IMG/VR virus record: IMGVR_UViG_3300039367_000078
Direction: 5' to 3' (one strand)
DNA length: 8,073 bases
From: a virus
Lineage: Duplodnaviria; Heunggongvirae; Uroviricota; Caudoviricetes
Part shown: positions 242 to 8,073 of the stretch, piece after piece
Numbering within the stretch: position 1 is the first letter of the stretch
Layout: the number at the start of each line of letters is the position of its first letter
The notes under the pieces: model-generated
The model's database searches: none
What the model saw: the letters and a program-made list of their open reading frames with translations, nothing else
Told to the model about the DNA's origin: nothing
Program-made: the position numbers and the translations under genes

Positions 242-451
242 ATGAATAAAGATGAAGCCGGCGGTAACTGGAAACAGTTTAAAGGTAAAGTGAAAGAGCA
301 ATGGGGCAAACTGACCGATGATGATATGACGATCATTGAAGGTAAACGTGATCAACTGGTCGGTAAAATCCAGGAACGCTACGGTTATCAGAAAGATCAG
401 GCAGAAAAAGAGGTTGATAGTTGGGAAAAACGCCATGATTACCGCTGGTAA
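242..451 (+). CDS. yjbJ: CsbD-family general stress protein YjbJ (69 aa)
   Basis: ORF MNKDEAGGNWKQFKGKVKEQWGKLTDDDMTIIEGKRDQLVGKIQERYGYQKDQAEKEVDSWEKRHDYRW; GAGG at 230..233 about 8 nt upstream of ATG 242. The ORF-track start at 236 is a TTG two codons upstream; ATG 242 is preferred on RBS spacing. Sequence matches my recollection of E. coli YjbJ almost residue for residue. Confidence 0.9.
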   Translation: MNKDEAGGNWKQFKGKVKEQWGKLTDDDMTIIEGKRDQLVGKIQERYGYQKDQAEKEVDSWEKRHDYRW

Positions 452-492: not shown

Positions 493-1008
493 TTAACGTG
501 ATTTCTTTTTCACCTGTACAGAGTGATCATGCTGGCACTGTTCAGGATGACGACACGCTTCCACTTCCACGCATGCCGCACAGAGTCCATGTGCTTCAAT
601 CACATTATGCCGCAGGGCAAACCCCATTTTTGCCGCCAGCGTATGCATAATGTCTTCCACGCCTTCTGCACATTCTTCTTTCACTGCGCCGCAGCGATCG
701 CAAATAAACATGGCTGACGTATGCGTGGGCTGGTCGAACAGATGACAGAGCACATAACTGTTGGTGGATTCCACCTTATGCACAAAACCTTGCTCAAGCA
801 GAAAATCCAGCGCGCGATAAACCGTTGGCGGCTTGGCTTGCGGTTCAGCTTCGCGCAGCAAATCAAGCAGATCATAAGCGCTGATAGCGCCATCCTGCAG
901 ACTCATCAGGCGCAACACTTCCAGGCGCTGTGGGGTCAGGCGCACATTACGCTGCGCGCAGATTTTTTCAGCCTGCGCTAATAACTCCTGCGTTGTGGTC
1001 TTTTCCAT
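493..1008 (-). CDS. zur: Zinc uptake regulator Zur (Fur family), 171 aa
   Basis: Minus-strand translation from ATG (plus 1006..1008) reads MEKTTTQELLAQAEKICAQRNVRLTPQRLEVLRLMSLQDGAISAYDLLDLL...HGLCAACVEVEACRHPEQCQHDHSVQVKKKSR, which I recognise as E. coli Zur with its Cys/His metal-binding motifs. The ORF-track N-terminal 20-residue extension (MFFLEHGKVRTFLTPTLRCP) is not part of the protein. Confidence 0.93.
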   Translation of the reverse strand: MEKTTTQELLAQAEKICAQRNVRLTPQRLEVLRLMSLQDGAISAYDLLDLLREAEPQAKPPTVYRALDFLLEQGFVHKVESTNSYVLCHLFDQPTHTSAMFICDRCGAVKEECAEGVEDIMHTLAAKMGFALRHNVIEAHGLCAACVEVEACRHPEQCQHDHSVQVKKKSR

Positions 1009-1325: not shown

Positions 1326-2330
1326 ATGTCAGGTATAATTTCAAGTGCAACAGAATTCTTCAATAATACACTCCATTCAAATCAATACGAAATTAAAGAT
1401 GCGAGCAAAGAAAAAATAAAGGATATATATAATAAATCGGTTGATTATGCAACGATGAGTAATCGCGCTGCGATTATTGCAAAAATAGATTTGTTTATTC
1501 AGAGAATCACCCATAATTTATGGACTGCAAGTGATAATAATGTTTCCTTAATTAAGCGAATAGATGCTCTCAAAAATTGGGTTGAGGAGTGTATTGATCA
1601 GTGCACTAATGAGCAATTAGGTGATCGTGACTATATTTCTGCATTTGTGGATCGGGCGATTTTTCATTACGCGATGAATTTTGTTTGTAATCCAATGGAA
1701 AATAGCGATGTAACTCTAATAGACAAGTGTACTTTCGACGTAATAAATCATAATGGCCTTCCCTCCACGATTCAGCTATTTTATGATAAATCCTATTGTA
1801 AAGCACCTGTAGCGTCATTACATCTAAAAACAGTAAGCGAAGGCTTTTTAAATTTGGAAAATGCATATAATGTAAAGAAAGATACTCGCTTAAGACCCCT
1901 GGCCTCCCTTTTACTTTCATTTTCATATGATAGTGCATCAGCAGATATCATAGGAGCAGCAGAGAGAGTTAATGATGATTGTGAAAACTACATAAAAAGT
2001 CAGATAAAAATATTATCTCGTCAAGTGATGAAAAAAAACCTGGCGGAGCTGAAAGACTTGATAGATAAAAAAGAATTGGATTTTAATGTAATTCTGCAGG
2101 AGATGAAAAATCAGGCCGGAGAAGAAAAAGAAGACATCAAAAACATTACAAAAATGCAGGCTGCAGGTGAGACTTTAATTAAATTTATTCAATCATTTGA
2201 CCCGGACTCAACGGGACCAATTATAATTGGTAAAGATATGGATGACAAAAATATAAATGACAACGATCTAATTAACGAAGATATTATTAAGTTCATTTAT
2301 GTCCTATTAGGTACTGAGTTAGAAAAATAA
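1326..2330 (+). CDS. Hypothetical protein, 334 aa, strongly AT-rich codon usage, no recognisable catalytic motif; occupies the variable zur-dusA interval
   Basis: Long uninterrupted ORF starting at ATG 1326; the in-frame stop at 1266..1268 excludes any longer N-terminus; GGTG at 1314..1317 is about 8 nt upstream. Followed by a strong intrinsic terminator. Protein is rich in Asn/Lys/Ile/Asp with a low-complexity acidic C-terminal third ([32 protein letters not shown]...[20 protein letters not shown]). I cannot place it in any family from sequence alone. Confidence 0.7.
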
Positions 2331-2371
2331 AATGTGAATTTTCCCTATAGCATGGAAGTTTTTACATAAAA

Positions 2372-2399
2372 GAACCCAATATTGATTGGGTTCTTTTTT
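2372..2399 (+). terminator. Rho-independent terminator downstream of the 334-aa gene
   Basis: Perfect 9-bp stem GAACCCAAT (2372..2380) / ATTGGGTTC (2385..2393) with 4-nt loop ATTG, followed by TTTTTT (2394..2399). Confidence 0.75.
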
Positions 2400-2602
2400 C
2401 TCTATCAGTGCTATTAGCAGGGAGAGATATCACCGTAGTTTAATGTGTGATTTTTATTTATCGTCGAACCTGGATTGTTTATCATTGGCCTTAACAAAGC
2501 TAACGGCTAATAAGATTATTTCCATCACTTCGTGAGAGCTTCATGCCTTGAGAGGATCTCAATTTTCTTTTGCAATGAGACAGGCGCTTCCTGTTGTTAT
2601 GG

Positions 2603-2608
2603 TATAGT
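2603..2608 (+). promoter_or_regulatory. Candidate extended -10 element (TGgTATAGT) of the native dusA promoter
   Basis: TGG+TATAGT at 2600..2608, about 85 nt upstream of the dusA-fragment ATG at 2692; no convincing -35 at 17-bp spacing. Weak, pattern-based. Confidence 0.2.
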
Positions 2609-2691
2609 ACCCCGCTATTGAGCCTCCTGAACAGTGATGCTGAATAACATAACTCAATGATATATCGATAAAATAATCTCTACATTTGAAA

Positions 2692-2814
2692 ATGCACGGT
2701 AATTCTGAAATGCAAAAAATCAACCAAACCAGCGCAATGCCTGAAAAAACTGACGTTCACTGGAGTGGTCGGTTTAGCGTTGCACCAATGCTCGATAGGA
2801 TGTACCGTTTTTGA
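2692..2814 (+). pseudogene. dusA: Displaced 5' fragment of tRNA-dihydrouridine synthase A gene (first 35 codons of dusA, then 5 non-native codons and stop)
   Basis: Translation MHGNSEMQKINQTSAMPEKTDVHWSGRFSVAPMLD-RMYRF*. The first 35 residues match the E. coli DusA N-terminus as I remember it (MHGNSEMQKINQTSAMPEKTDVHWSGRFSVAPMLDWTDRH...); similarity stops at 2796/2797. ORF is only 40 codons, so it is absent from the six-frame track. Confidence 0.8.
2770..2800. other. Putative attL junction (crossover region) of a dusA-integrating element
   Basis: The point where the dusA reading frame stops matching DusA (after codon 35, position 2796) marks the chromosome/element boundary; the recombination core should lie in the roughly 20-30 bp ending here. 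Exact limits cannot be set without the other junction or an empty-site sequence. Confidence 0.45.
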
Positions 2815-2871
2815 AAAACAACTAGTTATACACTTTGTGGGAGCCTATTGGGAACCTGAAGTTTTGCTCTT

Positions 2872-2891
2872 TCTATTCATATCTATTCATA
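2872..2891. repeat. Perfect tandem direct repeat, 2 x TCTATTCATA
   Basis: TCTATTCATA at 2872..2881 and again at 2882..2891, about 75-95 bp inside the putative att junction and about 30 bp upstream of the candidate cargo promoter. Confidence 0.85.
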
Positions 2892-2916
2892 AAGCACCAT
2901 TTGCTGCCTTATCTGA

Positions 2917-2945
2917 TTGACCAAAAACAACCGCGGTTATAGACT
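2917..2945 (+). promoter_or_regulatory. Candidate sigma-70 promoter for the two-gene cargo module
   Basis: TTGACC (2917..2922), 17-bp spacer, TAGACT (2940..2945); a CTAAG...CTTAG palindrome (about 2959..2975) lies just downstream near the predicted transcription start; GAGG RBS at 2990..2993 precedes ATG 2999. Confidence 0.3.
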
Positions 2946-2998
2946 TTGCTCCAAATAGCTAAGGCTATTGCTTAGTAAGTAAAACAGTTGAGGTTGCC

Positions 2999-3538
2999 AT
3001 GAATCCGTTTAACGCCATTACTTTTGCTGCATTGTGCGGGCCTCTGGCTTGTCCTGCTGCTATGGCGCAGGAGTTCATCATCCAGCCAGCCCCTGTGATT
3101 GCTAAACCTTTTGAGTACTCTCCTTCTGTTGAGGAATTCTCACGCAAAATGGAAGAGGGTAAGGAGATCTTGCAAAAGTTAACAATTGCAGCAGATGACT
3201 ACTATATCTGTTTGATTGATCTTAATAGCCAAGATGCTCGCGAGTTTGTTTCCAAAAACGGGACAGATACGACAGAGGCATGCGAAATGTTCCTGCGTGC
3301 TTTTGAAGAAGAAGTGAAGCGTACAATTGAATCGCCTCTGCCTGAATTTATCAGGTCAGAACTGAAGGTTTACTGGCGTCATATTGCTAAAGCTCGCTCA
3401 TCTGTCACTCGCCTTAACAATTACATAAAGAGCATATTTAAAGAAACTGTTACTTTTAGCGGGCGCGCGGATCTTGCTGGAATTGCAGCACTAGCTAGTC
3501 ACACATCAAATAAGCTAAAATCGATGCAATTTCACTAA
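2999..3538 (+). CDS. Hypothetical protein, 179 aa; first gene of the cargo pair and candidate non-canonical antitoxin/partner of the YafO-like toxin
   Basis: ORF with GAGG 5 nt upstream of ATG 2999; stop TAA 3536..3538 lies 16 nt before the next ATG. N-terminus (MNPFNAITFAALCGPLACPAAMAQEF) is hydrophobic but has no basic n-region, so it is not a convincing signal peptide. No Phd/YefM, RHH or HTH signature recognisable by eye. Confidence 0.65.
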   Translation: MNPFNAITFAALCGPLACPAAMAQEFIIQPAPVIAKPFEYSPSVEEFSRKMEEGKEILQKLTIAADDYYICLIDLNSQDAREFVSKNGTDTTEACEMFLRAFEEEVKRTIESPLPEFIRSELKVYWRHIAKARSSVTRLNNYIKSIFKETVTFSGRADLAGIAALASHTSNKLKSMQFH

Positions 3539-3554
3539 CCGATAGCGGACGACC

Positions 3555-3989
3555 ATGCATCTAGAAGTCTCTATTAATCCAGAAACTAGAGCTGAATTTT
3601 TTGATGAAGTTTTTCTCAAATTCCCGGAGCTAGAGTCTTCTATCATTGATGATTTCAAGAGATACAAAGCAACCGGTGAGCTTCCGCATTATTTCGGTAG
3701 GGACGTTGCGTATACTCAGCCTTATGGTGCTTTTCGGGCTGGGTTGATGCATATCCATCTTTGTCTACCGCCAAACAAGTTTCCCGAGAAACTTCCACAA
3801 CCGGATAGGGTCTGCAAGAAAGGTGATCCTGATAATGATGCTTGTCTTGTGTATGTCCAAGGTGAGCTTTATGAGAATAAATATTCACTCATTGCTATTA
3901 TGTATCCCGATGCACATGAAAAAGCAAGAAAACATGATGTGATGAGCTATCTGGCGCGAATTGCCCAGAATTATAAAGATGAAAACTAA
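3555..3989 (+). CDS. YafO-family toxin-like protein (putative ribosome-dependent mRNA interferase), 144 aa
   Basis: Translation contains DFKRYKATGELPHYFGRDVAYTQPYG...LMHIHLCLPPNKFP...DACLVYVQGELYENKYSLIAIMYPDAHEKARKHDVMSYLARIAQNY, which aligns by eye with my recollection of E. coli YafO (DFISYKRDGVLPDTFGRDALYDD...VAHIHLANENNPFP...EAHLVYCQGAFDEQAWLLIAILKPEPHKLARDNNQMHKIGKMAEAF). From memory, not verified by search. Confidence 0.65.
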   Translation: MHLEVSINPETRAEFFDEVFLKFPELESSIIDDFKRYKATGELPHYFGRDVAYTQPYGAFRAGLMHIHLCLPPNKFPEKLPQPDRVCKKGDPDNDACLVYVQGELYENKYSLIAIMYPDAHEKARKHDVMSYLARIAQNYKDEN

Positions 3990-4009
3990 CCCGCCGAAGC
4001 GGGTTTTTT
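3989..4009 (+). terminator. Rho-independent terminator closing the cargo module (partly bidirectional, between convergent genes)
   Basis: Stem CCCGC (3990..3994) / GCGGG (3999..4003) with CGAA loop, extendable by A-T pairs, followed by TTTTTT (4004..4009); lies between the convergent stops at 3989 and 4016. Confidence 0.75.
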
Positions 4010-4015
4010 GTGAGA

Positions 4016-4288
4016 TTAGTTATTTATTTTCCTATTTGTTCTTACCCTCTCCCATTCAATTCTGCCTTCTTCACGCCGTTTATCTATATATTCAGCAAGA
4101 TCCTGAATGTTGATGCAGCGCTTTGCTTTCTGTGATGTACCAACACGATAAGTCGGGATCGGCAACTGGCATGCATTTGCTTTCGCTTCTGCTGTGTTAG
4201 GGCTCATACCGAAATACTTTTGGCATACAGCTGACAGCTCAATGTTTGGGGTATTGAATTCAGCCATCAGTAAAAACAAGGTGTTCAT
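4016..4288 (-). CDS. PrtN/AlpA-like small phage transcriptional regulator (pyocin-activator-like), about 90 aa
   Basis: Translation MNTLFLLMAEFNTPNIELSAVCQKYFGMSPNTAEAKANACQLPIPTYRVGTSQKAKRCINIQDLAEYIDKRREEGRIEWERV... resembles PrtN-family proteins (MNT-FLLMAE...CEKYFG...). Start ATG at plus 4286..4288 chosen because GGAG lies 6 nt upstream on the minus strand; the ORF-track start at 4315 is a GTG without RBS. Confidence 0.65.
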   Translation of the reverse strand: MNTLFLLMAEFNTPNIELSAVCQKYFGMSPNTAEAKANACQLPIPTYRVGTSQKAKRCINIQDLAEYIDKRREEGRIEWERVRTNRKINN

Positions 4289-4324
4289 AATTTTCTCCAT
4301 CAAAACCGGCTGCACCCGGGAAAA

Positions 4325-4897
4325 TCATAATTCTGTGCTGGTGGCAGGAATTAATTTCTGCCAGATAGCGGAAACATATTTTGCCTGATGACGGGCATCA
4401 GCCAGGGCGTTGTGCCGTTCGCCATCGAAAGGCATGTCCATTTTGGGGTCGAATCCGATGGAACGCCCAAGCGTAACGATCGTGCGTACATCGTGGTCAT
4501 TCCAGTATGCCCACGGGCAGATTTGTCCTGCTCGCTCATAAGCTCCACGTAAAATTACGTTGTCGAAGGTGGCTCCGTTACCCCAGACTTTTAAATATTT
4601 CGTATTGTCTGCGTGCCGGTTAATGAAATGATTTAGTTCTGAGAGAGCATCGCTGATCGACAAAGTATCATCAATACAGATTGCAGCTCGTGCTTCAGGG
4701 CTTTGTTTCAACCACCACAGGATGGTATCGCCGTCAGGTGTAGCTCCTAGCTTCATAGCACTGTCCAGGCTAACAACCGTATAGAATTCTTGTCCGATGT
4801 CTCCGGTTTCTGGAGTGAAGAACACCGCGCCAATGGAAACGATCGGTGCATCCTTATTTTTCCCCATCGTCTCAAGGTCGATCATTAAGTTGTTCAT
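4325..4897 (-). CDS. DEDDh-type (DnaQ-like) 3'-5' exonuclease, phage-encoded, about 190 aa
   Basis: Exo I motif in MIDLETMG, Exo II-like region around LKVWGNGATFDNVIL and Exo III H-x4-D motif in HNALADARHQAKYV. Start ATG (plus 4895..4897) shares one nucleotide with the upstream stop (TGATG); AAGAGG lies upstream. Confidence 0.8.
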   Translation of the reverse strand: MNNLMIDLETMGKNKDAPIVSIGAVFFTPETGDIGQEFYTVVSLDSAMKLGATPDGDTILWWLKQSPEARAAICIDDTLSISDALSELNHFINRHADNTKYLKVWGNGATFDNVILRGAYERAGQICPWAYWNDHDVRTIVTLGRSIGFDPKMDMPFDGERHNALADARHQAKYVSAIWQKLIPATSTEL

Positions 4898-5706
4898 CAC
4901 TTCACCTCTTGTGATGGTTTTGCTGCAAAATACTCGATACCTTTATCCCAGATAGATTTTATGGTCGACCACGTGACTGGCACTTTAATTTCAATACGTC
5001 CGCTCCCGTCACAGGTATCGCAATCATCATCGCCAAAGCATTCCAGGCAGCTTATAAACGTAGTTTCTGAAAATTCACCGGATAGCGCCCCCTTAGCGCC
5101 GTTCTCGGCTGTTAGTCTCTTCGGCACCATAACCCAACCATCCGGAGTTACCGGAGAGTTGCCAGACAGTGCGTTCTGCAATCGTTCCAGCTTAACGTAT
5201 TCCTGAACCCTGTTTCCGTCGCACGCCTGAAGCCATTGCACAGCCTTTTGCGCATCAGTGTGAAAGGTACAAGTGCGACCGTCATCAAATTGCATTTCGT
5301 AGAGGTCAGCAACCTGTTTAAACTGCGTTTGTGGCAACTTGTAAGCCTGGCTTGCAGGTACGGCACCATAGAGCATGGCAGCTCGGCAGGCGTTCCAGCC
5401 TTCATCAAAACCGACTATGCCATTATTTAAAGATGGACGAGCATCTGGCACCACCGGCACTGGCTTGGCTATATATAGCGGCTGAACATACCAGCCCTTT
5501 GATAACCAACTGTCAGCAATGTTTTTACTCCTAGTTATTGCCGGAATACCTAAGCCATTGTCTGAATGCAGCCATGCCACCGGATCCTCTTCCAGCGATG
5601 CCAGAGCAATTTCATAAGCACGGCGCTCAACATTGTCTCGCACGTCCATGCTGCTGATTCGTTCTTTGATTTCTTTAATCAGTTCTTTATCGGTAAATGT
5701 GGTCAT
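4897..5706 (-). CDS. Hypothetical phage protein, 269 aa, with C-terminal CxxC...CxxC zinc-ribbon-like motif
   Basis: ORF starting ATG (plus 5704..5706) with GGAG upstream; C-terminal segment ISCLECFGDDDCDTCDGSGRIEIKV has two CxxC pairs. Start overlaps the preceding stop by one nucleotide (TAATG). No family recognised. Confidence 0.7.
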   Translation of the reverse strand: MTTFTDKELIKEIKERISSMDVRDNVERRAYEIALASLEEDPVAWLHSDNGLGIPAITRSKNIADSWLSKGWYVQPLYIAKPVPVVPDARPSLNNGIVGFDEGWNACRAAMLYGAVPASQAYKLPQTQFKQVADLYEMQFDDGRTCTFHTDAQKAVQWLQACDGNRVQEYVKLERLQNALSGNSPVTPDGWVMVPKRLTAENGAKGALSGEFSETTFISCLECFGDDDCDTCDGSGRIEIKVPVTWSTIKSIWDKGIEYFAAKPSQEVK

Positions 5707-6068
5707 TATGCTCCAGCCTCCGGTGCTTTTGGCATTACTGCCCAGTGAGTGATATTGACGTTTTCAAGGTCCCCGACCTGAAATGTCCACTGCCATTCTC
5801 CGGTTTCTTTTTGCCCCCATGTATACCAGAGAGAACGCCAGCCAATCAGCCAGCCTTCTCCATTAGCATCAAATAACAGAATACTTTCATTCGCTGGCGG
5901 CAGTTCAGCTGACACTGGTATTACTTTGTTTTCCAGTGCTGCACATTTAGCTTCAAGCGCATCAAATTTACGCACCAGGTACTCAGCATTTGTTTCATTC
6001 ACTTTCAGATCTCGTGGTACACATTTCCCGCGAAGAAACCCTTCCATTTCGAAAACATTCATGCGCAT
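5706..6068 (-). CDS. Small phage protein, 120 aa, Trp-rich (possibly DUF551/YfdS-like)
   Basis: Translation ...ILLFDANGEGWLIGWRSLWYTWGQKETGEWQWTFQVGDLENVNITHWAVMP; GGAG 8 nt upstream of the first ATG (plus 6066..6068); an alternative ATG at 6060..6062 forms an ATGA overlap with the upstream stop. Family assignment from memory and tentative. Confidence 0.65.
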   Translation of the reverse strand: MRMNVFEMEGFLRGKCVPRDLKVNETNAEYLVRKFDALEAKCAALENKVIPVSAELPPANESILLFDANGEGWLIGWRSLWYTWGQKETGEWQWTFQVGDLENVNITHWAVMPKAPEAGA

Positions 6069-6595
6069 TTGCGTAACTCCGATAACTCGTTAAAACGTTC
6101 CATAAACATCCCATAGGCATGGCCTGGCGACAGTGGAATAACTTTGAACATCTCTGTTGCCGGGATACCTTCCAGTACAGGCCAGAAAGAGCCATCATCA
6201 AGCCCGAGATCGCGGCGTTCGGTTGCCAGCATGATGAGATCGGCATATTTCACGGGCGTGCTCATAACCGGGGGTAACCCGTATTTCTCACGGATTACGG
6301 CGTCTATTTTTTCTTCCATCCGTTTATAGTCAGGAAGAAGGCGTTTCAGTGGCGCGGGGATGTCCTGGCAATACGCTTCTGTTGCATCATGCATTAATGC
6401 TTCAAAAGCAAATTCCTGCGGTACCAGCTGGCTGCAAAGCACCGCATGTTGGGCGACGCTGTAGAAATGTGAAAGATGTCCTGCAAAGCGACAGATATTT
6501 GAAAGAGAAACCGCGATATCGTTAATAACGATGTCGTCTTTATTTATCCTGTCATAATAAAAATGCTTCCCGGAAAAAGTTTTAATAAATGACAT
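6059..6595 (-). CDS. HD-domain phosphohydrolase, YfdR/YfbR-like 5'-deoxynucleotidase family, 178 aa
   Basis: Motifs H..H (AGHLSHFYSVAQHAV) and HD (EALMHDATEAY) typical of HD-domain nucleotidases. Start ATG at plus 6593..6595 (MSFIKTF...) preferred over the ORF-track start at 6622 because GGAG lies 6 nt upstream. Confidence 0.8.
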   Translation of the reverse strand: MSFIKTFSGKHFYYDRINKDDIVINDIAVSLSNICRFAGHLSHFYSVAQHAVLCSQLVPQEFAFEALMHDATEAYCQDIPAPLKRLLPDYKRMEEKIDAVIREKYGLPPVMSTPVKYADLIMLATERRDLGLDDGSFWPVLEGIPATEMFKVIPLSPGHAYGMFMERFNELSELRKCA

Positions 6596-6672
6596 TTTGT
6601 TCTCCACGTATATGCGCTGCACCGCGCTGAATTCTGGTAAAAGGAAGCCCTCACCATCCGGCGATTATTGAG

Positions 6673-7548
6673 TTAATTACGTTTCCATAAATGCCCCCGC
6701 AGGGGCATTTGCAGTAATGAAATCAGGCGGTGAAAGTACNNNNNNNNNNNNNNNNNNNNNNNNNNNNNNNNNNNNNNNNNNNNNNNNNNNNNNNNNNNNT
6801 TAGCCATTTCTTCCTGCACTGCTTCCAGCTGAATAATGCGCAGAACCAGTACAGGACGATCGCCAGTGATAATGCTGAGGCGTAATTTAAATGGACGTTC
6901 TTTCAGACCTTCAAACGGAACGCATTTAAATTCAAATGCCACTGGCATAATATCTTTGGTCTTCGCTTCGACAGACTCCATCAGGGAGCGTTTGCCGCTG
7001 AAGTCATTATCTTCAAAATCAGCGGTCTGGTTTGCTTCAATCGTGATTTTACGGACTGCCGCAGCCGCTTTTGTTGCCTGAATAGCGTCACCATTAGCAT
7101 CAAAGCCCACAAGGTAGTCGGCCCAGTCTTCAATCCATTCTGCCAGTGACTTCTGGGAGTTACGCTCGCCATTAACAGACAACAGAGCAGAGAACGGTGC
7201 TGTCTTTTTCAGTTTGAGAGTGGCGGTGTTATCTGCGTGACCTGGTTCATCAATAGTACCCAGGTTAATCACACTGACGGCTCGCATATTATCGGCATCG
7301 ATAAAGCAGCGGGTGCCTTCATCTGCAAGATCTTTAGAATAACGGGTAAAGTCATCGATGCTGGCAGTGGAAAGCGCACCACGGAAACGGAAGCGATTTA
7401 AATTAAATTTCTCCAGATCATGAATGCGGAAATTCTCAGGCAATGCCACAGCATCGGCACCAATCTTACTGATAATTTCATTAACACCCTGAGCAGAAAT
7501 AAGGGCATGGATTTGATTAATTGCGGTTGCGTCTAAGTTCTGAGACAT
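6673..7548 (-). CDS. DUF2303/YfdQ-like prophage protein; 3' end unresolved because of the N-run
   Basis: ORF from ATG (plus 7546..7548; GAGGA 4 nt upstream), translation [67 protein letters not shown]... Well supported from 7548 down to 6800. The post-gap tail (6673..6739, [21 protein letters not shown]) spans the hairpin and looks non-coding, so the true stop is probably in or near the gap. Confidence 0.6.
6689..6710. other. Perfect 9-bp inverted repeat / hairpin (AAATGCCCC-cgca-GGGGCATTT)
   Basis: Seen directly in sequence, located between the YfdQ-like gene and the YfdR-like start. No adjacent U-tract on either strand, so not a canonical intrinsic terminator. Confidence 0.6.
6740..6799. 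other. Run of 60 N (assembly gap or masked sequence)
   Basis: Literal n characters in the input; falls in the 3' region of the YfdQ-like ORF. Confidence 0.99.
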
Positions 7549-7613
7549 AATAAGTCCTCACTATATAAAGATATTCAGTGATGAGATAAATAATCGGTTA
7601 ATTAAGAACGATA

Positions 7614-7976
7614 TTAATGACCTGCTGCGCGGAGTTTTCCGTCAGGTTCACCGGCAAGAGTCAGTAATTGTCCCTGGTCTTCCTGCAGAATAGTCAGGCG
7701 ACCACCGCGATTGACATACATCGGCGTTTCGGTGGTGTCTTCTTCGGAAATTTTCCCGCGGTTAGTTGGGCGAACATATGAGAGTTTGTGTTTGATTTTC
7801 ACACGGTTCTCATCAAACGGTTCGATTTCCAGATTGAGTGAGACCTTCCCTTTGGTTTTCGTGTTCATCACACCGGAAGCGACCTCACTGAGAACTGCGC
7901 CGATTTTGGTTTCAAATACGCCGCCGTCCAGCTCCCCGATAAATGCCTGCACATCAGTACTGCGTTCGCTAGCCAT
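7614..7976 (-). CDS. Hypothetical small prophage protein, 120 aa (YfdP-like position in the operon)
   Basis: Start ATG at plus 7974..7976 (MASERSTDVQAFIGELDGG...) with GAGGAG 6 nt upstream; the ORF-track start at 7994 is less likely. Confidence 0.65.
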   Translation of the reverse strand: MASERSTDVQAFIGELDGGVFETKIGAVLSEVASGVMNTKTKGKVSLNLEIEPFDENRVKIKHKLSYVRPTNRGKISEEDTTETPMYVNRGGRLTILQEDQGQLLTLAGEPDGKLRAAGH

Positions 7977-8073
7977 TTTGCTGCTCCTCATCATATCGAC
8001 CCTGCAAGGTCGGTTGGTTTCTCCACAAAACAGAGAAGAACACCTGCGGTGGCAGCCGCCCGGATGGATTGGG
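7969..8073 (-). CDS. Possible 3' end of a further minus-strand phage gene entering from beyond the window (partial)
   Basis: Minus-strand frame open from 8073 to a TAG at plus 7969..7971 (...PNPSGRLPPQVFFSVLWRNQPTLQGRYDEEQQNG*), overlapping the next start by 8 nt in the same coupled style as the rest of the operon. Only 34 codons visible. Confidence 0.25.
   Translation of the reverse strand, partial: PNPSGRLPPQVFFSVLWRNQPTLQGRYDEEQQNG

What the first reader, a model, noticed from the sequence alone, without database searches (positions are those of the whole stretch)
2692..2814. Truncated dusA 5' fragment marks an integration junction of a dusA-targeting element
A 40-codon ORF not in the ORF track reads MHGNSEMQKINQTSAMPEKTDVHWSGRFSVAPMLD, which I recognise as the DusA N-terminus, then diverges (RMYRF*) exactly where the conserved Dus core motif (WTDRH...) should follow. 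Sequence to the left is contiguous with core genes; sequence to the right is phage-like. This is the configuration expected for integrases that insert into the 5' end of dusA and supply a replacement 5' end at the other junction, leaving the original 5' fragment with its native promoter stranded here. It fixes the element boundary near 2797 and predicts an integrase next to an intact dusA beyond the window.
Basis: partly seen in the sequence, partly recalled or inferred. Interest (0 to 1): 0.6.

Follow-up and report, generated by a model that had tools for sequence, protein, structure and literature searches.

The report
Prophage junction inside the dusA gene
This is the left host–phage junction (attL) of a lambda-like prophage inserted in the tRNA-modification gene dusA, which leaves the gene's original first 35 codons stranded; it is correctly read but common and already described.

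Summary
Window 2692..2814 is a 40-codon ORF: codons 1-35 are the native E. coli dusA start, and the tail RMYRF* is phage DNA. DNA left of the junction matches an uninterrupted yjbJ-zur-DUF2713-dusA locus. DNA right of it is 99.8% identical to the infectious temperate phage PhiR40_1.

The crossover lies in an 8-bp core, ATGCTCGA (2788..2795), shared by attB, attL, attR and attP. The first phage-specific base is 2796.

In E. coli EC332, which has the same junction, the far end of a 44.7-kb prophage carries a 365-aa tyrosine integrase. It sits 88 bp upstream of, and divergent from, an intact dusA whose first 35 codons come from the phage. PhiR40_1 has the same integrase and dusA' end.

That integrase is 361/364 identical to the integrase of phage 1720a-02. 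Integration of 1720a-02 at this core, and regeneration of attP, were shown experimentally (PMC6328086). The family was defined by Farrugia et al. 2015 (PMC4482086).

The integrase/dusA' arm occurs in 742 of 5426 complete E. coli genomes. Verdict: real, correctly interpreted, already known, low interest. The integrase and attR of this window's own replicon lie outside the window and could not be checked.

The parts
2300..2691 (+). Native dusA upstream region, stranded at attL. It includes a terminator-like hairpin after the DUF2713 gene (2368..2397) and a promoter-like site (2491..2519).
   Evidence: 99.6% identical to uninterrupted loci over window 2300..2795 (H6). 130/130 identical immediately left of the core. 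Promoter and terminator consensus scan; these are consensus matches only.
2692..2796 (+). Host-derived dusA codons 1-35 (MHGNSEMQKINQTSAMPEKTDVHWSGRFSVAPMLD). The last base, 2796, is already phage-specific, but the codon is still Asp.
   Evidence: PGAP annotates the same 105 nt as a partial tRNA-dihydrouridine synthase pseudogene in EC332.
2692..2814 (+). Hybrid 40-codon ORF: dusA codons 1-35 plus a phage P'-arm tail RMYRF and stop.
   Evidence: The same tail follows the phage's own dusA' in a circular attP form.
2788..2795 (.). Core ATGCTCGA, the only stretch identical in attB, attL, attR and attP. The strand exchange must have occurred within it.
   Evidence: Four-way comparison. Real circular attP. 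The same core is at both ends of the phage 1720a-02 record, and a 7-base core was reported experimentally (PMC6328086).
2796..2858 (.). Conserved P' arm of the att site. It holds the right half of the core-type inverted repeat (ATAGGA, 2795..2800) and two putative arm-type integrase-binding repeats, GGGAGCCT (2839..2846) and GGGAACCT (2850..2857).
   Evidence: The first 61-70 nt after the core are what diverse dusA prophages share (and one search hits ending at query 557/566). In PhiR40_1, 4 of the 5 GGGARCCT matches in 42 kb lie within about 160 bp of attP. Binding by the integrase is inferred.
2999..3538 (+). Phage cargo gene of unknown function (179 aa, signal-peptide-like N-terminus), first gene after attL.
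   Evidence: phrog_8416, unknown function. No Pfam, NCBIfam or PADLOC hit.
3555..3989 (+). YafO-family toxin gene (144 aa), followed by a bidirectional terminator-like hairpin at 3988..4005.
   Evidence: PF13957, 1.9e-21. NF007377 below its curated cut-off. Terminator-like hairpin.
4016..4315 (-). Probable excisionase (recombination directionality factor) of the prophage, PrtN family.
   Evidence: PF11112, 4.4e-24. phrog_1300 'excisionase', 2.5e-40. The role is inferred from family and position.
4325..8073 (-). Early-left region of the lambdoid prophage: 3'-5' exonuclease, Ea22-like, DUF551, YfdR-like HD hydrolase, YfdQ-like and YfdP-like genes.

Best explanation
Window 2692..2814 is the attL junction of a lambdoid temperate phage of the PhiR40_1 / 1720a-02 type. 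The phage integrated by tyrosine-recombinase site-specific recombination into codons 33-35 of the E. coli dusA gene.

The phage attP lies between its integrase gene and its excisionase-side genes. On the integrase side, the phage carries its own promoter region and a diverged copy of dusA codons 1-35. Recombination within the 8-bp core ATGCTCGA fuses that phage copy to the body of dusA at attR, giving an intact 345-aa chimeric DusA.

The original promoter and first 35 codons are left at attL, fused to five phage codons and a stop. That is the fragment seen here. The stranded fragment is a by-product of integration, and excision would restore the native gene.

Shown: the sequence relationships of all four att sites, and the integrase and intact dusA in near-identical genomes. 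From the literature: integration, excision and attP regeneration for an integrase 99% identical. Inferred: the same far-end architecture on this window's own replicon, the arm-type binding sites, and the excisionase role of the PrtN-family gene.
For: The ORF sequence is exact, and the left arm is 130/130 identical to an uninterrupted dusA locus. Uninterrupted genomes stop matching at window 2795.

The right arm is 60/60 identical to PhiR40_1, and 2796..8073 is 99.8% identical over 99% of its length.

EC332 has the same junction at 99.9%. At the other end of a 44.7-kb prophage it has a 365-aa integrase (record 240426-241523, minus strand) 88 bp upstream of an intact 1038-nt dusA. That dusA encodes MHDNHETQKINQTSVMPEKTGVYWNSRFSIAPMLD-WTDRH..., so its 5' end is phage-derived.

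A circular 43.7-kb record of strain CT01 shows the real attP: int, then dusA', then ATGCTCGA, then the P' arm, matching the reconstructed attP across the core.

The integrase has a PF00589 domain. R222, H306-x-x-R309, H332 and Y342 align with catalytic residues of XerA. It is 361/364 identical to the phage 1720a-02 integrase, and that phage's record carries the same core and P' arm. Its integration about 100 bp into dusA, and attP regeneration in vivo, were demonstrated (PMC6328086).

Family features are described in PMC4482086. The integrase/dusA' arm is present in 742 of 5426 complete E. coli genomes, nearly always annotated integrase | dusA. The P' arm is present in 351 of 5426. PhiR40.1 and PhiR55.1 are used as infectious temperate phages.
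Against: The window ends 5.3 kb into the prophage, so attR, the integrase and the restored dusA of this particular replicon were not seen. The window contains a 60-N assembly gap (6740..6799), so it comes from a draft assembly. No result contradicts the explanation.
Confidence: 0.95

Rival explanations
1. The junction is genuine attL, but in this genome the prophage is a defective remnant that has lost its integrase/attR end. The far-end prediction (integrase beside an intact dusA) would then fail, and dusA might be truly inactivated.
For: The window covers only 5.3 kb of the element and has an assembly gap. Prophage decay is common. More genomes carry the integrase arm (742) than were detected with the P' arm (351), so the two arms are not always detected together.
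Against: The phage part is 99.8% identical to the infectious phages PhiR40_1 and PhiR55_1. All ORFs in the window are open apart from the N gap. In EC332 the complete architecture is present. The 742 versus 351 difference is in the opposite direction to loss of the integrase, and may reflect the short (61-70 nt) conserved P' arm being near the megablast detection limit.
Confidence: 0.04
2. Assembly artefact: a chimeric contig joins the dusA 5' end to unrelated phage DNA.
For: The window comes from a draft assembly with an N run at 6740..6799.
Against: The identical junction occurs in closed genomes. 47 records cover at least 80% of 2300..3000, and EC332 matches at 99.9%. The breakpoint falls exactly on the experimentally known core.
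Confidence: 0.005
3. The 40-codon ORF and its promoter are not inert. The stranded host dusA promoter reads through the short ORF into the phage genes at 2999..3989 (the unknown 179-aa protein and the YafO-family toxin), so integration places phage cargo under host dusA control.
For: No terminator-like site lies between 2692 and the hairpin at 3988..4005, and all three ORFs are on the + strand. In circular attP the phage's own dusA' promoter region is in the same relative position.
Against: A promoter-like site (2917..2945) lies directly upstream of the 179-aa ORF, so read-through is not needed. Sequence beyond the first 61-70 nt of the P' arm differs between dusA phages, so the arrangement is not conserved. 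There are no expression data.
Confidence: 0.1

Closest known systems
Phage 1720a-02 (Phi-stx2dact, KF030445.1) integrated in dusA (Balasubramanian et al. 2019, PMC6328086)
   Same: The integrase is 361/364 identical to that of PhiR40_1. It has the same ATGCTCGA core and the same P' arm sequence, with a phage-borne dusA' next to int that restores the reading frame. It also shares part of the early region (62% of 2796..8073 at 96.5%).
   Different: 1720a-02 carries stx2 and different cargo next to the P' arm. The phage here carries no stx gene in the part seen and has a 179-aa ORF plus a yafO-family toxin gene at that position. The deposited 1720a-02 junction is with Citrobacter rodentium dusA, not E. 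coli dusA.
dusA-associated integrase (DAI) elements, prophages and genomic islands (Farrugia et al. 2015, PMC4482086)
   Same: Insertion is at a single site in the 5' end of dusA. The element supplies a replacement 5' end that includes the beta-1 strand (RFS[VI]APMLD). The att repeats are semiconserved, the original 5' end is left as a remnant, and the integrase lies adjacent to dusA.
   Different: None of substance; Escherichia members are already included in that study. The 21-bp logo itself could not be read because figures are not held, so the match to it rests on position and on PMC6328086.
Escherichia phages PhiR40_1 (PV340560.1) and PhiR55_1 (PV340571.1)
   Same: 99.8% identity over 99% of window 2796..8073, with the same gene order from the att site onwards.
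   Different: These records are the phage alone. They are cut at the att sites, with host-derived bases at the left end. The window also shows the host side.
Phage lambda integration at attB (gal-bio)
   Same: Tyrosine integrase, a short identical core, arm-type repeats on both sides of attP, and a separate excisionase.
   Different: Lambda integrates between genes, and both int and xis end up at one prophage end. Here attP lies between int and the xis-side genes, so they end up at opposite prophage ends. The target is also inside a gene, which the phage repairs with its own copy of the 5' end.

Membership tests
dusA-specific integrative elements with dusA-associated integrases (Farrugia 2015) | Insertion within the conserved site in the 5' end of dusA | tested here: met
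   The breakpoint is in codons 33-35, with the core at window 2788..2795. Uninterrupted loci match up to 2795.
dusA-specific integrative elements with dusA-associated integrases (Farrugia 2015) | Semiconserved direct repeats (attL/attR) flanking the element | tested here: met
   attL of the window against attR of EC332 and PhiR40_1 shows an 8-bp exact core within 28/35 identity. The attR used comes from near-identical genomes, not from this replicon.
dusA-specific integrative elements with dusA-associated integrases (Farrugia 2015) | The element supplies a replacement dusA 5' end, so an intact dusA exists at the other junction | tested here: met
   EC332 has an intact 1038-nt dusA with a phage-derived N-terminus MHDNHETQ...RFSIAPMLD. 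PhiR40_1 and the circular CT01 record carry dusA' beside int. This was not observable for the window's own replicon.
dusA-specific integrative elements with dusA-associated integrases (Farrugia 2015) | A tyrosine recombinase with the RHRH/Y residues encoded adjacent to dusA | tested here: met
   PF00589 at 7.5e-21. R222, H306, R309, H332 and Y342 align with XerA motifs. The gene is 88 bp from dusA and divergent from it. It lies outside the window.
dusA-specific integrative elements with dusA-associated integrases (Farrugia 2015) | Phylogenetic placement of the integrase in the DAI clade (sister to Rci) | not tested
   No tree was built. Membership is inferred from 99% identity to the 1720a-02 integrase, which PMC6328086 treats as one of the Farrugia dusA integrases.
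dusA-specific integrative elements with dusA-associated integrases (Farrugia 2015) | Excision as a circle that regenerates attP and attB | not testable with these tools
   Indirect support only. A circular 43.7-kb record with attP exists in strain CT01. Excision was shown experimentally for 1720a-02. PhiR40.1 is infectious.
Lambdoid temperate phage (prophage) | Lambda-like gene order: early-left recombination/accessory genes, cI/cro, O, Q, lysis, head and tail genes | tested here: met
   Annotated gene maps of PhiR40_1 and of the EC332 prophage. The window holds the early-left part.

The most novel reading that the evidence does not exclude
The stranded host dusA promoter and its 40-codon ORF might act as an integration-dependent driver of the adjacent phage cargo (the 179-aa secreted-looking protein and the YafO-family toxin). 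These genes would then come under host dusA regulation in the lysogen, and the 179-aa protein could be an unrecognised partner or antitoxin of the YafO-like toxin.
Probability: 0.1. Interest if true: 0.35.

Novelty: already known. Interest (0 to 1): 0.1.

Why it matters
The junction fixes the left boundary of the prophage to within 8 bp (2788..2795). It also explains why annotation pipelines call a partial 'tRNA-dihydrouridine synthase' pseudogene here even though the cell most likely still has a working, chimeric dusA at the other prophage end. This helps with prophage delimitation and with avoiding a false 'dusA inactivated' call. It adds nothing new biologically. The integrase family, the target site, the gene-repair trick and this particular integrase are all published, and the integrase/dusA' arm is present in about 14% of complete E. 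coli genomes.

Tried and rejected
(1) Misassembly was rejected because closed genomes carry the identical junction.

(2) A search for the junction 20-mer ATGCTCGATAGGATGTACCG across one genome per species found only one hit, Escherichia sp. MOD1-EC7003. That gave no information on wider host range. The exact-match requirement and the one-genome-per-species sampling limit this test.

(3) I tried to assign a function to the 179-aa ORF next to yafO with Pfam, NCBIfam, PADLOC and PHROGs. The only hit was phrog_8416, of unknown function. The GenBank label 'YafM antitoxin' in PV340560.1 has no support from these searches.

(4) I looked for an intrinsic terminator between the dusA fragment and the phage cargo and found none. 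The scan is a simple consensus test and cannot exclude Rho-dependent termination.

(5) I could not read the 21-bp logo of Farrugia et al., because figures are not held.

(6) I did not try to find the window's own assembly. The look-up tools return at most 10 kb of flank, which would not reach the integrase about 42 kb away.

Full report
**Observation**

The sequence at 2692..2814 reads ATG...TGA and translates to MHGNSEMQKINQTSAMPEKTDVHWSGRFSVAPMLDRMYRF*. The mechanical ORF list shows it as 2686..2814 with an upstream TTG start.

The genes to the left are yjbJ (242..451), zur (493..1008, minus strand) and a DUF2713 gene (1326..2330, PF10897 at 2e-57). These assignments come from mapping onto annotated complete genomes.

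**Breakpoint**

I ran megablast with window 2300..3000 against 5426 complete E. coli genomes. Uninterrupted loci, annotated dusA | DUF2713, match only up to query base 496, which is window 2795. 47 records continue through the whole query.

I then anchored four sequences on the shared core:
- attB from the uninterrupted strain SX4
- attL from the window
- attR from strain EC332
- attP reconstructed from phage PhiR40_1

The results were:
- attL is 130/130 identical to attB on the left.
- attL is 60/60 identical to the phage on the right.
- attR is 60/60 identical to attB on the right.
- The only stretch common to all four is ATGCTCGA, at window 2788..2795.

The first phage-specific base is 2796.

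**The other end of the element**

EC332 has a junction 99.9% identical to the window's. In EC332 the prophage runs through lambdoid early, replication, Q, lysis, head and tail genes. It ends with dinI, a 365-aa tyrosine recombinase on the minus strand, and, 88 bp further on and divergent, a full-length 1038-nt dusA followed by pspG and qorA.

That dusA starts MHDNHETQKINQTSVMPEKTGVYWNSRFSIAPMLD and then continues with the host sequence. Its first 35 codons are therefore supplied by the phage. The phage copy is 85-87/105 nt identical to the host copy, and the upstream DNA is unrelated (12/34).

**Identity of the phage**

Window 2796..8073 is 99.8% identical over 99% of its length to Escherichia phages PhiR40_1 and PhiR55_1. 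The PhiR40_1 record is cut at the att sites, and its right end carries the integrase and dusA'. PhiR40.1 and PhiR55.1 are used as plaque-forming temperate relatives of lambda.

A 43.7-kb circular record in strain CT01, labelled a plasmid, is an excised relative. It shows the real attP: int(-), then dusA' (35 codons), then ATGCTCGA, then the P' arm. It reads the same 40-codon ORF with the RMYRF* tail.

**Integrase**

The integrase has a PF00589 catalytic domain. R222, H306-x-x-R309, H332 and Y342 align with the catalytic motifs of XerA.

It is 361/364 identical to the integrase of phage 1720a-02. The two ends of that phage's record carry the same core and the same P' arm.

For 1720a-02, three things were shown experimentally in PMC6328086:
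- integration about 100 bp into dusA
- a short core conserved in attL, attR, attP and attB
- regeneration of attP on excision in mice

The family of dusA-associated integrases was defined in PMC4482086. That paper describes the replacement of the dusA 5' end, the remnant original 5' end and the preserved beta-1 strand, and it includes Escherichia members.

**Anatomy of attL in the window**

In attP the core sits in a perfect inverted repeat, TCCTAT-GCTCG-ATAGGA (read directly from the sequence). The window keeps the phage half, ATAGGA, at 2795..2800, and has the host half, ACCAAT, on the left.

The first 61-70 nt after the core are the part of the phage arm shared by diverse dusA prophages. 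That segment ends just after two 8-bp repeats, GGGAGCCT (2839..2846) and GGGAACCT (2850..2857). In the 42-kb PhiR40_1 genome, four of the five GGGARCCT matches lie within about 160 bp of attP, two on each side. I take them to be arm-type integrase-binding sites, which is an inference.

The PrtN-family ORF at 4016..4315 (minus strand) matches the PHROG 'excisionase' family at 2.5e-40. The integrase and the probable excisionase are therefore separated by attP and end up at opposite ends of the prophage. PMC6328086 also remarks on this non-lambda orientation.

**Frequency**

The integrase/dusA' arm is found in 742 of 5426 complete E. coli genomes, almost always annotated 'integrase | dusA'. The P' arm is found in 351 of 5426. 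This is a common, routinely annotated configuration.

**What remains inferred**

The window stops 5.3 kb into the prophage and has a 60-N gap at 6740..6799. The integrase, attR and restored dusA of this replicon were therefore not seen. A truncated remnant cannot be excluded, but it is unlikely given the near-identity to infectious phages.

No terminator-like site separates the stranded dusA promoter region from the + strand phage genes at 2999..3989. Read-through is therefore possible but untested, and a promoter-like site at 2917..2945 makes it unnecessary.

**Verdict**

Interest is low.

Noticed in passing
window 6740..6799: A run of 60 N (assembly gap) lies inside the YfdQ-like ORF (6673..7548, minus strand). 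The window therefore comes from a scaffolded draft assembly.
   Followed up: partly
window 2999..3989: A YafO-family toxin gene (3555..3989) is preceded not by a YafN-like antitoxin but by a 179-aa ORF. That ORF has a signal-peptide-like N-terminus (MNPFNAITFAALCGPLACPAAMA) and no Pfam, NCBIfam or PADLOC match (only phrog_8416, unknown function). GenBank PV340560.1 labels it 'YafM antitoxin' without visible support. The real start may be an internal Met, and its role is open.
   Followed up: partly
window 2839..2857 and L004 42094..42113: GGGARCCT repeats cluster on both sides of attP: 4 of the 5 matches in the 42-kb phage. They are probably arm-type integrase-binding sites. The homology shared by different dusA phages on the P' side ends just after them.
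   Followed up: partly
L005 (NZ_CP081794.1, E. coli CT01 'plasmid unnamed3', 43,671 bp): This record, deposited as a plasmid, is a circular excised dusA-type phage carrying an intact attP (int, dusA' fragment, core, P' arm).
   Followed up: partly
L004 42137..42241 versus L003 25613..25717: The phage-borne dusA' copies of PhiR40_1 and EC332/1720a-02 differ at 10 of 105 nt. This gives 6 amino-acid changes, all within residues 1-26, while RFSIAPMLD (the beta-1 strand region) is unchanged. It suggests little constraint on the DusA N-terminal extension.
   Followed up: no
window 4016..4315 (-) versus the integrase outside the window: The probable excisionase (PrtN family, phrog_1300) lies at the attL end, and the integrase lies about 42 kb away at the attR end. 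attP splits the int/xis module, unlike in lambda.
   Followed up: partly
window 3988..4005: A GC-rich hairpin (AACCCGCCGAAGCGGGTT) with T runs on both strands lies between the convergent yafO-family gene and the excisionase-like gene. It is probably a bidirectional terminator.
   Followed up: no
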